The notes beneath the pieces were generated by a model. It did not search any database, was not told where the DNA came from, and saw only the letters and a program-made list of their open reading frames with translations. A DNA stretch of 64,000 bases, taken from assembly GCA_965262115.1 (NCBI GenBank), contig OZ253496.1, positions 1,604,447-1,668,446 on the forward strand, read 5' to 3'. Position numbers and translations under genes: made by a program. Below, piece by piece: positions 29,351 to 32,112 of the stretch (positions are counted from its first letter, which is position 1; the number at the start of each line of letters is the position of its first letter). The DNA is from Nitrospinales bacterium. GTDB taxonomy: Bacteria > Nitrospinota > Nitrospinia > Nitrospinales > VA-1.

Positions 29351-29802
29351 CCTCGGAGGGGAGAGGAACTTAATAGTTGAGGAGTACATCCACCTACGGA
29401 AAAATATAACATGATCTTCCCCTGAATTGGTGGACACATCGAAAAGTGTGGATAATACACTTTTGGAGGTGTTTTTATGGGAACCAAACGCAGGAGTTTC
29501 AGTAAAGAATTCAAGTTAGAAGCGGTTCGATTGGTTATTGAAGTAGGCGATAGCATTGCCCGGGTGTCCCGGGATCTGGGAATCCGTTCTGCCCTTCTGG
29601 GTCGCTGGAAACAGGAGTATGAGGAGGATCAGGGGAATGCGTTTCCCGGCAAAGGACAGCTTAAGCCGGGAGATGAGTTGCAGCAGTTGCGGCGAGAAAA
29701 CGCTCGCCTTCGTATGGAGCGGGACATATTAAAAAAGGCGGCAGTTATCTTTGTGATGTCCTCTTCATTTGTCTTCATGCCCCGAAGCAACTGTGTTAAA
29801 TG

Positions 29803-30743
29803 TCAAGTGCTGGCAATGAGATTTTCATTCCAGAGTGTTTTTGTTTTGATCATGGTATTGATGATCGTTAATAACTTTCTCATGCATGCGGTAATGGCAA
29901 CTTTAAAGGGTTTGCCCTTTTCGATGAGGCGTGTGTAAAAGGTACGAATCACGGGATTATGCTGCATGGCAGTGACGGCGGCCATGTATAAAGCGGCACG
30001 CACATTGGCGCGACCGCCCCGGATACACCGAACTTTCCGCTGTCCCGATTGAGGGGAGCGAGACCGATAAGGGCGGCGATTTGCTTCTGATTAAGAACTC
30101 CAAGTTCCGGAACCCCGGCCAAGAGGTTGACAGCCGGAACGGGACCGGCACCGGGAACACTTTGTATGATCTGGTCGTGCTCACGCCAGGCAGAACTGTT
30201 TTTGATGGTTCTGGAAAGGTCGCCATCGATTTTTCGCAAGCGTTTTTTAAGAGATTCGATATGCTCCTTAATGTCTTTACATATCCATTTTGGAGCTTGT
30301 TTTAGACGGGTTTTTTCTTTGGTCAGCATCTCGATCAACTGGCGACGGCGTGTCACTAGAGCTGAGAGTTCAAGAGATTCTTCGTCTTTGATTTTCCTGA
30401 CCTCAGGACGTATGGCCTTGGCAAAATGGGCCAGCACAAGAGAATCAATGACATCGGTTTTTGCCAGTTTCCCGGTGGCTTTGGCAAAATCACGAACTTG
30501 CCGTGGGTTGACCACGGCTACTGGCAGTCGACCCGCAACCAGGGCCGAAGCCAACGGGATCTCTAAGCCGCCTGTGGCTTCCAAAACGATCAATGGAGGA
30601 TTTAAGGCGGATAAACTCTCGACCAAACCAGCAATCCCTTCTTCATTGTTAGCGGTTTGCCAGGTTTCTTGAGTCATGCTGTCAGCAACATCCAGATGGA
30701 GTTTAGAAATATCGATGCCAATAAAATGGGGTTTCTGATTCAT
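29803..30743 (-). pseudogene. IS110 DEDD recombinase, frameshifted at about 30025
   Basis: GIDISK, LEATG, VNP..R, KTDVIDS, SVPGAG, GLAP..RDSG; the C terminus RAALYM...ACMRKLL is in another frame. Confidence 0.92.
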
Positions 30744-30960
30744 AATTTGGTCTCCCAGCCTTGCCGATGCGGGCTCAGTGGCCCAGGCAACTGTTCGGGT
30801 TAATCAAAATAGGACACAACAATCTGCGCTTCGGGACGGGCTTAAAAGCCCAAGGGGTAAACGATCTATTGTGCCCTGAATCAAACCCTGTGAGCCTTGT
30901 GGAAAACACAAAACCGGCTTCCCACAGGGCTCACAGGTACAACTACTACAAATTCCCCTT
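30744..30960 (-). ncRNA. Bridge RNA of the IS110 element
   Basis: 5' hairpin (30887-30937); target loop with guides TTACCCCT and CCCGAAG; donor loop with guides ACAGTTGC and CAAG; ends AAGGCTGG just before the ATG, as in IS621. Confidence 0.85.
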
Positions 30961-32112
30961 ATGAACAACATACAAGGGGTACTCGAAGGGTTCCCAATGA
31001 GATATCGGTTTATACGGGATCATCGAGAAGCATTTCCGGTAAGCCCGATGTGCCGGGTTCTGGAAGTGGGACGAAGTGGGTTCTATGCCTGGCTGAGCCG
31101 CCCCGAGAGCCTGAGGAGCCGTGAGAAGCAGCGATGGGTTGATGAGATCAAAACCGTTTATAAGAAGAGTCGCCAGACTTATGGCAGTCCCAGAATTCAT
31201 GAGGACTTGAAAGACAAGGGATATGCCATTGGCAGGCATCGTATTGCCTGTCTTATGCGCGAGCATGGAATCGTTGCCAAGCACAAAAGAAAGTTCAGGG
31301 TGACAACCGATTCCAAACATAATCACCCGGTGGCAAAAAACAAACTGCAACGGCGGTTTAATGTTGCTGAGCCCGGTCAATGCTGGGTTTCGGATATCAC
31401 CTATATCCCGACTCAAGAGGGCTGGTTATACCTTGCGGTGACGCTGGATTTATTCCACCGTAAAGTTATTGGTTGGGCCATGGATCGTTGGATAACCCGT
31501 TGGTTGGTAATGAGAGCTTTAAATATGGCAATGAAGAACGGCGGCATGAAACCGGGATTGATTCACCATTCTGACCGGGGGGTTCAATATGCCTGCAACG
31601 ATTTTCAAGCCTTGCTCAATGTTCATGGGATAGAGTGCAGTATGAGCCGGAAGGGCGATTGCTGGGATAACGCCGTGGCGGAGAGTTTTTTCCATACTCT
31701 CAAAGTGGAACTCATTCATAACCGGAACTACAAAACCCGTCAGCAAGCAAAGAAGGATATTTTTGAATATATCGAAGTGTTTTATAATCGGCAACGCCGT
31801 CACTAATATCTCGGCTATCTCAGCCCTGCCGAATTCGAGAAACAGGCCTATGCCTCTTAACTAACTGTCCACTAAAACAGGGGAAGATCAGTGCCCCAGT
31901 CGATGAATGACAGCCTGGCTAAATACCCTGAAAGGGGAATGTATTTTTCCCTCAAGTAAAACGTGCTGGTTTCGGCGCATGTCTTCGCCAAAAACAGCAA
32001 GCTCATCAGCCATCAACTCTACAAAAAGCGCTAGGCGCGCGGCCAACTTGCAATAGCTAAGACTGCTGGCAATAATACTCTTGGCTTGCCCGGTTGCTTC
32101 TCGAGGCCATTT

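What the first reader, a model, noticed from the sequence alone, without database searches (positions are those of the whole stretch)
29412..31890. Three-tier nest: IS110 inside a 41-bp module inside IS3
Seen: IS3 copies 2 and 3 are the empty alleles. Copy 1 is 2479 bp, which is 1290 plus 1189 bp. The module is split into 29752-29787 and 30977-30981 around the IS110, with AAG repeated. The IS3 inverted repeats remain intact. Inference: module insertion made the IS3 a target for IS110, and the IS3 ends could now carry the IS110 as a passenger. Copy 3 still has a perfect unused target; copy 2 has a G-to-T change (TCGTG) within the right-target match.
Basis: partly seen in the sequence, partly recalled or inferred. 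Interest (0 to 1): 0.65.

Follow-up and report, generated by a model that had tools for sequence, protein, structure and literature searches.

The report
RNA-guided IS110 nested inside IS3
A jumping gene of the IS3 family picked up a short host repeat, and that repeat is the address read by a second, RNA-guided jumping gene (IS110 family), which landed in it. The resulting 2.5-kb nest is real, occurs at six or more places in this Nitrospina-like genome, and is built from known kinds of parts.

Summary
Window 29412-31890 is 2479 bp: a 1290-bp IS3-family element plus an 1189-bp IS110-family element. The IS110 sits in the hairpin loop of a 41-bp REP-like module inside the IS3.

- **Module is derived.** Module-free IS3 relatives read ATCTT|CTCGAA.
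- **IS110 targeting.** All 24 long IS110 copies sit at CCCCG(A/C)AG|GGG, and 21 of 24 read CATGCCCCGAAG|GGGTA. The bridge-RNA target loop matches this site. A diverged IS110 variant changed both guides together with its target.
- **Not built at this locus.** Every IS3 copy carries the module. The genome holds 7 empty IS3 copies, 6 full composites and about 6 hybrids.
- **Spread as a unit (inferred).** Two composites are identical over 2479 bp but have different flanks. The broken-recombinase IS110 allele occurs only next to IS3 sequence (7/7, p=0.004). So the composite spread as a unit, by IS3-end transposition or by recombination between copies.
- **Caveat.** No IS3 copy can make the classical OrfAB transposase. 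The module moves orfB from the -1 to the +1 frame.

Each layer is a new member of a known kind, and interest is moderate.

The parts
29412..29437 (+). IS3 left terminal inverted repeat (TGATCTTCCCCTG...)
   Evidence: 13 bp are perfect and 22 of 26 match the reverse complement of the right end. The same end is found at 18 places in the genome.
29477..29751 (+). IS3 orfA (HTH_Tnp_1), up to the module. In this copy the frame runs on into IS110 sequence and stops at 29938.
   Evidence: Pfam PF01527, E 1.2e-17. ORF list.
29731..29737 (+). A AAA AAG slippery heptamer, the ancestral -1 frameshift site of the IS3
   Evidence: Read. It is conserved in the module-free relatives L001-L004.
29752..29787 (+). 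Left 36 bp of the 41-bp REP-like module (TGTGATG...CATGCCCCGAAG)
   Evidence: These are IS3 positions 341-376. Positions 341-381 are exactly what L001 lacks. The module family has 93 copies at 10 or fewer mismatches.
29788..30976 (-). IS110-family element, 1189 bp, non-autonomous copy
   Evidence: 24 copies of 1 kb or more in the genome, all at the same motif. Pfam PF01548 and PF02371.
29803..30743 (-). IS110 recombinase pseudogene. A 10-bp deletion, with its junction between 30030 and 30031, splits it into 264-aa and 66-aa ORFs.
   Evidence: Intact 316-aa versions are present in all 15 copies of 1198 or 1199 bp.
30744..30976 (-). IS110 left non-coding end, which is the bridge RNA gene. The target loop guides are UUUACCCCU (30853-30861) and CCCGAAG (30829-30835), on either side of a small hairpin.
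   Evidence: Fold z = -3.3, with the guides lying in an internal loop. Guide and target co-vary in the 88%-identical variant.
30977..30981 (+). Right 5 bp of the module (GGGTA)
30997..31806 (+). IS3 orfB (rve integrase core), ending at a premature TAA (31804-31806). The natural stop is at 31858-31860.
   Evidence: Pfam PF00665, E 4e-25. Relatives and copies cA and cB have a Ser codon at this position.
31865..31890 (+). IS3 right terminal inverted repeat (...CAGGGGAAGATCA)
53042..54331 (-). IS3 copy 2 (e5), an empty 1290-bp allele. Its module is at 53951-53991, with target change C371A at 53961.
   Evidence: The same change is present in e1 and e2.
62864..64000 (+). IS3 copy 3 (e6), empty and cut by the window end. 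Its module is at 63204-63244 with a perfect IS110 target.

Best explanation
**Shown.**
1. An IS3-family element (ancestrally about 1249 bp, with orfA, an A6G -1 frameshift site, orfB and TG...CA ends) acquired one 41-bp copy of a genus-wide REP-like hairpin repeat. The repeat sits 14 bp downstream of the slippery site and has no target duplication.
2. The loop of that repeat reads TACCC-CT-TCGGG in IS110 orientation. [quoted passage not shown] Every IS110 copy in the genome sits at that position, at a shared CT core.
3. The window's IS110 copy keeps its RNA gene and both ends, but its recombinase is broken by a 10-bp deletion. It therefore depends on the 15 intact copies elsewhere in the genome.

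**Inferred.**
1. The nest was not built at this locus. The module predates the spread of this IS3, since all copies have it.
2. The IS3::module::IS110 composite has been copied as a unit. The route was either IS3-end transposition (3-bp duplications) or recombination between IS3/IS110 copies.
3. The copy in the window is a mosaic of two composite haplotypes.
4. Empty copies are either never-hit targets or scarless IS110 excisions.
5. The C371A allele, present in 3 of 7 empties, destroys the right-target match and should be immune to IS110.
For: **Structure.**

**Module is a derived, exact 41-bp insert.** (L001-L004; G029, G024, G003).

**IS110 targeting.**
- Of the 24 long IS110 copies, 21 sit at CATGCCCCGAAG|GGGTA. 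One has GTG for ATG in its left flank, and the two variant copies sit at CATGCCCCGCAG|GGGTA.
- 28 perfect targets are unoccupied, 4 of them in IS3.
- The guides UUUACCCCUU and CCCGAAG lie in an internal loop of a stable fold.
- The 88%-identical variant has CCCCUG and CCCGCAG, and it sits in CCCCGCAG|GGGTA.
- The intact recombinase carries PF01548 and PF02371 and matches the IS621 structure 8wt6 at E 6e-30.
- The CT core, REP targeting and circle-junction promoter match Durrant et al. 2024 (PMC11208160).

**Copying as a unit.**
- There are 6 full composites and about 6 hybrids.
- cC equals cE over 2479 bp, with different flanks starting exactly at the IS3 ends.
- cA and cB share 6 private IS3 sites and differ at only 4 positions overall.
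- All 7 main-type deleted IS110 copies adjoin IS3 sequence, against 4 of 15 intact ones (p=0.004).
- IS3-linked IS110 copies cluster on the tree: 4 changes against a shuffled mean of 8.1 (4 of 500 shuffles as low).

**3-bp duplications.** TCT is confirmed against a paralogous empty site (50388-50427). AGC flanks cA and CTG flanks 1417087-1419712.
Against: - No IS3 copy can make OrfAB by the classical route. The module puts orfB in the +1 frame, with a TGA at the module start in that frame.
- 11 of 13 full copies also carry a premature TAA.
- There is no other IS3-family paralogue in the genome. The transposase source for any en-bloc transposition is therefore unknown.
- Most IS3 flanks are scrambled by IS3-IS3 inversions, so duplications cannot be assigned to composites specifically.
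- IS110 haplotypes are mosaic, and the same 10-bp deletion occurs in the diverged variant. Gene conversion is therefore frequent and could mimic co-inheritance.
- No read-level or expression data were available.
Confidence: 0.8

Rival explanations
1. Independent hits. Each IS3 copy was struck separately by IS110 because each carries a perfect target, and the composite never moved as a unit.
For: - IS110 is evidently active: 15 intact copies and 22 near-identical main-type copies.
- IS3 modules make up about 30% of all perfect targets.
- Both intact and deleted IS110 types occur in IS3.
- The deleted copy keeps its RNA and ends, so it could be mobilised in trans.
Against: - cC and cE are identical over 2479 bp, including IS3 and IS110 private alleles.
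- All 7 deleted copies are IS3-linked. If targets were chosen at random with about a 0.3 share for IS3, six further hits would have a probability of about 7e-4 (Fisher p=0.004).
- IS3-linked IS110 copies cluster on the tree.
Confidence: 0.15
2. Homology-driven copying. The IS110 insert, with or without the deletion, spread among pre-existing IS3 copies by gene conversion or crossing-over that used the 376-bp and 914-bp IS3 arms and the 1.2-kb IS110 as homology. No transposition of the composite was involved.
For: - 3-bp duplication partners are exchanged between copies, for example e4-e5, e5-e6, e6-cB and e2-e7. This shows frequent IS3-IS3 recombination.
- Haplotypes are mosaic. One case is p1810365 (649T with 1205C). 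Another is cD, which differs from cC/cE only inside composite positions 1399-1885.
- In cF the module has been replaced by the 61-bp flank typical of other IS110 loci.
- Hybrid loci exist in which IS110 has IS3 sequence on one side only.
- The 10-bp deletion is shared with an 88%-identical lineage.
Against: It needs as many pre-existing empty IS3 copies as there are composites. It does not by itself explain why the identity of cC and cE ends exactly at the IS3 termini, although a fully converted recipient would look the same.
Confidence: 0.35
3. Reverse order. The module and the IS110 entered the IS3 together, or IS110 occupancy is the ancestral state of this IS3 lineage. The 1290-bp 'empty' copies would then be scarless IS110 excision products that later multiplied.
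For: - Polarised against relatives, the ancestral alleles 1205C and 649C are carried almost only by occupied copies (3/3 and 4/5). Six of seven empties belong to the derived 649T/1205A class.
- IS110 excision is scarless (PMC11208160).
Against: - There is no known way to insert a 1.24-kb module-plus-IS110 unit between T and C without a duplication.
- Older haplotypes may simply have been exposed to IS110 for longer.
- Recombination blurs the haplotype tree.
Confidence: 0.2
4. Assembly artefact. The nest at this locus would be a chimeric join of repeats in a repeat-rich genome.
For: The genome has about 20 IS3 and about 26 IS110 copies. Reads could not be checked.
Against: It is a single-contig 2.68-Mb assembly. 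The same architecture appears at 6 loci in 4 haplotypes and 3 sizes (2479, 2489 and 2499 bp), each with unique flanks.
Confidence: 0.03

Closest known systems
IS621 (E. coli), ISPpu9 and ISPpu10 (Pseudomonas putida): IS110-family bridge-RNA elements that insert into REP sequences (PMC11208160; PMC12288879; PMC1525189)
   Same: - DEDD plus Tnp-domain recombinase (E 6e-30 to IS621 structure 8wt6).
- About 230 nt of left non-coding end, with a target loop and a donor loop.
- CT core, no inverted repeats and no duplication.
- The target is the hairpin of a host repeat.
- A -35/-10 promoter (TTGACA-17-TATGTT) is formed only across the circle junction.
   Different: - The host is a Nitrospina-like bacterium, and the target is a different 41-bp repeat family with no RAYT in the genome.
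- A third of the copies are guide-only derivatives with a broken recombinase.
- Half of the copies sit in a repeat that is itself carried by another insertion sequence.
[quoted passage not shown]
   Same: An IS110-family element whose programmed target lies inside another mobile element, so that it rides on that element and may disable it.
   Different: In those cases the target is a native part of the host transposon, its terminal repeat. Here the target is a foreign host repeat that the IS3 acquired secondarily, in its frameshift window.
IS911, IS3 and IS150: classical IS3-family elements with orfA, orfB and programmed -1 frameshifting on A AAA AAG
   Same: HTH orfA, rve orfB, an A6G heptamer, TG...CA inverted repeats and 3-bp target duplications. 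The module-free relatives L001-L004 have the classical layout.
   Different: In this genome every copy has 41 extra bases after the slippery site, so orfB lies in the +1 frame. Most copies also lose the last 18 codons of orfB to a TAA. The family nevertheless reached about 20 copies.

Membership tests
IS110 family (bridge-RNA-guided recombinase IS) | N-terminal DEDD RuvC-like domain (PF01548) and C-terminal Tnp domain with conserved Ser (PF02371) | tested here: met
   The window copy has PF01548 at E 1e-24 and a truncated PF02371 (residues 191-238), because the 10-bp deletion shifts the frame just after DSGKF. The intact 316-aa sister copies have both domains in full and match IS621 (8wt6) at E 6e-30 and ISCro4 at E 9e-33.
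IS110 family (bridge-RNA-guided recombinase IS) | No terminal inverted repeats and no target duplication; donor and target share a short core (CT) | tested here: met
   All copies follow TACCC-CT-(T/G)CGGGG, with CT at both junctions. The third shared base is lost in the variant.
IS110 family (bridge-RNA-guided recombinase IS) | A long left non-coding end encoding an RNA with a target-binding loop and a donor-binding loop, complementary to the target and to the IS ends | tested here: met
   - Target loop: UUUACCCCU(U), a hairpin, then CCCGAAG, in an internal loop of the minimum-energy fold.
- Both guides change together with the target in the 88%-identical variant.
- Donor loop: ACAGUUGC ... 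CAAG matches the circle junction ACAGTTG-CT-TG (read).
- No Rfam family reached threshold.
IS110 family (bridge-RNA-guided recombinase IS) | Promoter reconstituted across the RE-LE circle junction | tested here: inconclusive
   Joining the ends on paper gives TTGACA, 17 nt, then TATGTT (sequences). No transcript data are available.
IS110 family (bridge-RNA-guided recombinase IS) | Excision as a circle and RNA-guided insertion | not testable with these tools
IS3 family | orfA with HTH and orfB with a DDE rve core | tested here: met
   PF01527 at E 1e-17, plus PF00665, PF13276, PF13333 and PF13683.
IS3 family | orfB in the -1 frame, reached by programmed frameshifting on A AAA AAG to give OrfAB | tested here: not met
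   - The slippery heptamer is present at 29731-29737, but the 41-bp module puts orfB at +1. The orfA start is at IS3 position 66 and the orfB ATG at 397.
- A -1 slip ends at the old orfA stop, TGA, which overlaps the orfB ATG.
- The feature is met in the module-free relatives.
- The element is an IS3-family derivative by homology and by its ends, not by a working frameshift layout.
IS3 family | Terminal inverted repeats TG...CA and 3-4-bp target duplication | tested here: met
   The inverted repeat has 13 perfect bp. Duplications are TCT (checked against the empty paralogue at 50388-50427), AGC (cA) and CTG.
REP/BIME-type repeats mobilised by RAYT | A short repeat with a conserved hairpin, in many copies, often in arrays | tested here: met
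   - 93 copies at 10 or fewer mismatches.
- The stem co-varies (CCCC..GGGG against CCCG..CGGG), and tandem and half units occur.
- The repeat is present in 21 of 23 genomes of the genus and in none of 8 from other genera of the order.
REP/BIME-type repeats mobilised by RAYT | A cognate Y1 (RAYT) transposase in the genome | tested here: not met
   PF01797 has no match in the genome, while the controls respond. The module is REP-like in form only, and what moves it is unknown.

The most novel reading that the evidence does not exclude
The composite may be a two-key mobile unit in an ongoing conflict between two insertion sequences.

- A captured host repeat turned the IS3 into a landing pad for an RNA-guided IS110.
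- Guide-only IS110 copies with a broken recombinase then spread mainly by riding the IS3 ends, which give random targets and 3-bp duplications, rather than by their own pathway.
- The IS3 answers with a target-escape allele, C371A. This allele breaks the right-target match and the hairpin, and it is carried by 3 of 7 uninterrupted copies.
- A further speculative layer concerns the frameshift. The module changes the need from a -1 to a +1 shift, and its own CCC-CGA-AGG run, or the CCC-A just before the orfB ATG, could supply that shift. This would explain how a 'doubly crippled' IS3 still multiplied.
Probability: 0.3. Interest if true: 0.6.

Novelty: new member of a known kind. Interest (0 to 1): 0.4.

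Why it matters
It is a clean natural example of how the programmable address of an IS110 bridge RNA shapes a mobilome. A 41-bp host repeat that strays into another transposon redirects an RNA-guided element into that transposon. This disables its transposase gene and creates a larger unit that then multiplies and drives inversions.

It also offers natural material for three tests:
- a single-base target-escape test, comparing CCCC with CCAC;
- a guide-only IS110 that depends on recombinase supplied in trans;
- an IS3 whose frameshift window was rewritten, although the element still spread.

None of this changes what is known about how either family works.

Tried and rejected
- **Rfam on 29300-32000.** The only hit is a sub-threshold match to sX15 (30.5 bits against a gathering score of 55, E 0.016), on the strand opposite the recombinase. 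It was not used.
- **Exact search of metagenome contigs** for the IS3-module junction found nothing.
- **A second IS3-family transposase as a trans source.** Only a 55-aa fragment was found.
- **RAYT as the module's mobiliser.** None was found.
- **Using 3-bp duplications to prove composite transposition.** This was inconclusive, because flanks have been exchanged by IS3-IS3 inversions. Only cA (AGC) and 1417087-1419712 (CTG) keep their own pair.
- **Recurrent slippage as the origin of the 10-bp deletion.** Rejected, because there is only 1 bp of microhomology. Sharing with the 88%-identical variant points to gene conversion instead.
- **Transcriptional slippage on the A6 run as a rescue for OrfAB.** Rejected, because the orfB frame has a TGA at the start of the module.
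- **Codon rarity as support for a +1 shift.** CGA and AGG are the two least-used Arg codons, but at only 10.7% and 11.3% the support is weak.
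Full report
**1. Observation**

The stretch 29412-31890 is 2479 bp. The repeat scan shows two arms. 29412-29787 (376 bp) and 30974-31890 (917 bp) are each 100% identical to adjoining parts of an uninterrupted copy at 53042-54331. The arms overlap by the three bases AAG, which gives a 1290-bp element plus an 1189-bp insert at 29788-30976.

- **Outer element.** It has an HTH_Tnp_1 orfA and an rve orfB. It also has an A AAA AAG heptamer at 29731-29737 and TG...CA inverted repeats with 13 perfect bp. It belongs to the IS3 family.
- **Insert.** It encodes, on the minus strand, a DEDD_Tnp_IS110 and Transposase_20 protein split into 264-aa and 66-aa ORFs. 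It belongs to the IS110 family.
- **Copy 2.** It carries the single change at 53961 (C371A in IS3 coordinates).
- **Copy 3.** It starts at 62864, is cut by the window end, and has the perfect module.

**2. The module is a derived insert in the IS3**

A scan of species-representative genomes with OrfB found a 1248-bp contig of an uncultured Nitrospina MAG (L001). It is about 80% identical in DNA and 82% in OrfB. It aligns to IS3 positions 1-340 and 382-1290, so it lacks exactly positions 341-381. At the junction it reads ATCTT|CTCGAAAGG.

Three more distant Nitrospinota copies (L002-L004) also lack the module, as do three same-genus genomes (G029, G024, G003). The insert boundaries are unambiguous and there is no target duplication.

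The module family is a resident repeat of the host:
- The genome holds 93 copies at 10 or fewer mismatches, with a co-varying stem and with tandem and half units.
- It is present in 21 of 23 genomes of the genus and in none of 8 genomes from other genera of the order.
- No RAYT-type transposase is present, so it is REP-like in form only.

**3. Consequence for the IS3**

Without the module, orfB lies in the -1 frame and the orfA stop overlaps the orfB start. That is the classical layout, as seen in L001.

With 41 extra bases, orfB lies in the +1 frame. The orfA start is at IS3 position 66 and the orfB ATG at 397.
- A -1 slip now ends at the old orfA stop.
- The orfB frame carries a TGA at the start of the module, so slippage on the A-run cannot rescue the fusion.

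All 13 full-length copies carry the module. Eleven also carry TAA in place of the Ser codon found in relatives and in copies cA and cB. There is no other IS3-family gene in the genome.

The family did nevertheless transpose after gaining the module. Matching 3-bp duplications can be paired between ends (TCT, CAA, AAT, GTC, AGC, CTG). TCT was checked against an uninterrupted paralogous site at 50388-50427. The source of the transposase is therefore unexplained. A +1 shift on CCC-C inside the module, or on CCC-A just before the orfB ATG, would restore a fusion. This is speculation, since CGA and AGG are only mildly rare codons.

**4. Why IS110 is there**

All 24 IS110 copies of 1 kb or more sit at CCCCG(A/C)AG|GGG, and 21 of them read CATGCCCCGAAG|GGGTA. 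Read in IS110 orientation, the target is TACCC-CT-TCGGGG and the circle junction is ACAGTTG-CT-TGTATG.

The 233-nt left non-coding end folds well (z = -3.3). Its second stem carries an internal loop that reads UUUACCCCUU, then a small hairpin, then CCCGAAG.
- The first guide equals the left target plus the core.
- The second guide is the reverse complement of the core plus the right target.
- This is the arrangement described for IS621 (PMC11208160).

An 88%-identical IS110 lineage has two copies. Its guides read CCCCUG and CCCGCAG, and both copies sit in modules whose loop is CCCCGCAG|GGGTA. Both guides thus changed together with the target, which is the strongest evidence here for RNA-guided choice.

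This variant also shows that the 'repeated AAG' is the CT core plus one coincidental base.

The intact recombinase (316 aa, present in all 15 copies of 1198 or 1199 bp) matches the solved IS621 recombinase at E 6e-30. Joining the ends on paper gives TTGACA, 17 nt, then TATGTT across the junction.

The window's copy has a 10-bp deletion, with its junction between 30030 and 30031, just after the DSGKF motif. It has an intact RNA gene and intact ends but no recombinase of its own.

**5.

| Class | Count | Details |
|---|---|---|
| Empty 1290-bp IS3 | 7 | e1-e7 |
| Full composites | 6 | cC, cD (this one) and cE at 2479 bp; cA and cB at 2489 bp with intact IS110; cF at 2499 bp, with its module replaced by a 61-bp one-and-a-half unit |
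| Hybrid or partial loci | about 6 | IS110 has IS3 sequence on one side only |

There are 28 unoccupied perfect targets (TGCCCCGAAGGGGTA), of which 4 lie in IS3 copies. Occupancy is 11 of 15 for IS3-borne targets against 11 of 35 for the others (p=0.012).

**6. Did the composite move as a unit?**

Evidence for:
- cC (1462089) and cE (1933516) are identical over all 2479 bp. Their flanks differ from the first base outside the IS3 ends on both sides.
- cA and cB share six private IS3 alleles and differ at only four positions.
- All seven main-type IS110 copies with the 10-bp deletion adjoin IS3 sequence, against 4 of 15 intact copies (Fisher p=0.004).
- On an IS110 tree built without the indel columns, the IS3-linked label needs 4 changes against a shuffled mean of 8.1. 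Only 4 of 500 shuffles are as low.

Independent hits by a trans-mobilised defective IS110 are therefore unlikely.

Two routes to unit-wise copying remain: transposition by the IS3 ends, and homology-driven copying between IS3 and IS110 copies. Recombination is clearly frequent:
- Duplication partners are swapped between copies, which indicates inversions.
- Haplotypes are mosaic.
- cD itself differs from cC and cE at four sites, all within composite positions 1399-1885.
- The same 10-bp deletion is shared with the 88%-identical lineage, although only 1 bp of microhomology flanks it.

I cannot separate the two routes with sequence alone.

**7. Order of events**

When alleles are polarised against relatives, the ancestral states are carried almost only by occupied copies. 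1205C is in cA, cB and p1810365. 649C is in cC, cE, p1417087, p2518396 and e7. Six of the seven empties belong to the derived class.

So some 'empty' copies may be scarless excision products that later multiplied, rather than targets never used. Alternatively, older copies may simply have been exposed to IS110 for longer.

Either way, the nest was not assembled at this locus, because the module is in every copy.

**8. A detail worth a test**

C371A changes CCCCGAAGGGG to CCACGAAGGGG. It breaks both the hairpin and the right-target match. It is found in three of the seven uninterrupted copies (e1, e2, e5) and in no occupied copy. This is what an escape allele under IS110 pressure would look like.

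**9. Comparison with what is known**

- The inner element behaves like, and by the tested features is a member of, the IS110 bridge-RNA family. It targets REP-type sequences as IS621, ISPpu9 and ISPpu10 do.
- An IS110-family element aimed at a sequence inside another mobile element has precedent in IS4321 and IS5075 on Tn21 ends.
- The outer element is an IS3-family derivative that fails the family's frameshift layout.
- The new aspect is the combination. A secondarily captured host repeat makes one IS the preferred home of another, and the nest has been amplified.

A literature search for IS110-in-IS3 nests found nothing specific.

**10. Limits**

All copies are near-identical, so there is no selective signal in the IS3. 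The few orfB differences are mostly non-synonymous or nonsense, which suggests decay.

Earlier notes of this scan on sister copies reach the same reading of the layers. I re-derived each point used here independently.

Noticed in passing
window 29340-29411: The 72 bp just left of this IS3 begins with GCAAAGGTCTCCC, the end of another repeat family. The same 72 bp precedes four IS3 left ends (e1, cC, cD and the fragment at genome 1411429), and the DNA further upstream differs in each case. No IS3 right end has the matching ACA flank. A related IS3-free site is at genome 1854701-1854763. How this junction was multiplied is unexplained.
   Followed up: partly
G000:C1:2628217-2628299: An 83-bp miniature element made of two IS3 terminal repeats facing each other, that is, an IS3-derived MITE-like remnant. 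A 191-bp IS3 left-end fragment lies nearby at 2629047-2629237.
   Followed up: no
G000:C1:2518289-2519438: An IS3 right end directly abuts internal IS110 sequence. IS110 position 109 is joined to IS3 position 1290, and IS110 end fragments lie on the other side. This may be a reciprocal nest, IS3 into IS110, or a rearrangement product.
   Followed up: partly
G000:C1:1894891-1897389 (composite cF): The IS3-borne module is replaced by a 61-bp one-and-a-half unit. This unit is identical to the left flank of three non-IS3 IS110 copies (120376, 736444, 1744400). It looks like a gene-conversion tract that ran from the IS110 into its flank.
   Followed up: partly
G000:C1:2682953-2684242 (e7) and other IS3 copies: The differences among orfB copies are mostly damaging. 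661 G>T gives TAG in e7, 649 gives Arg to Cys, 836 gives Ala to Val, and 899 gives Arg to His. Only two changes are synonymous. This gives no sign of purifying selection on the IS3 transposase.
   Followed up: partly
window 61920-62031: A 112-bp block of four tandem copies of a 28-bp unit (TTTTCATCGGCCCTGCGCCGAGCAGTGG; first copy diverged) lies just upstream of IS3 copy 3.
   Followed up: no
genome G007 (same genus), e.g. C1:1268767-1269594 and 490489-492418: The module's hairpin half (TTCGTGCCCCGAAGGGGTA) occurs in long arrays spaced about 80-110 bp apart in a relative. The repeat family therefore forms clusters elsewhere in the genus.
   Followed up: no
window 30734-30890 (+): A weak Rfam match to Xanthomonas sRNA sX15 (30.5 bits, below threshold) lies on the strand opposite the IS110 recombinase, over the bridge-RNA region. 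It may reflect shared structure in IS110 left ends.
   Followed up: no
L034 (genome G021) and L035 (genome G030): Single IS110 relatives in two other genomes of the genus carry target-loop guides CCCGGAG and CCUGGAG in place of CCCGAAG. This suggests retargeting to other loop variants of the same module family.
   Followed up: partly
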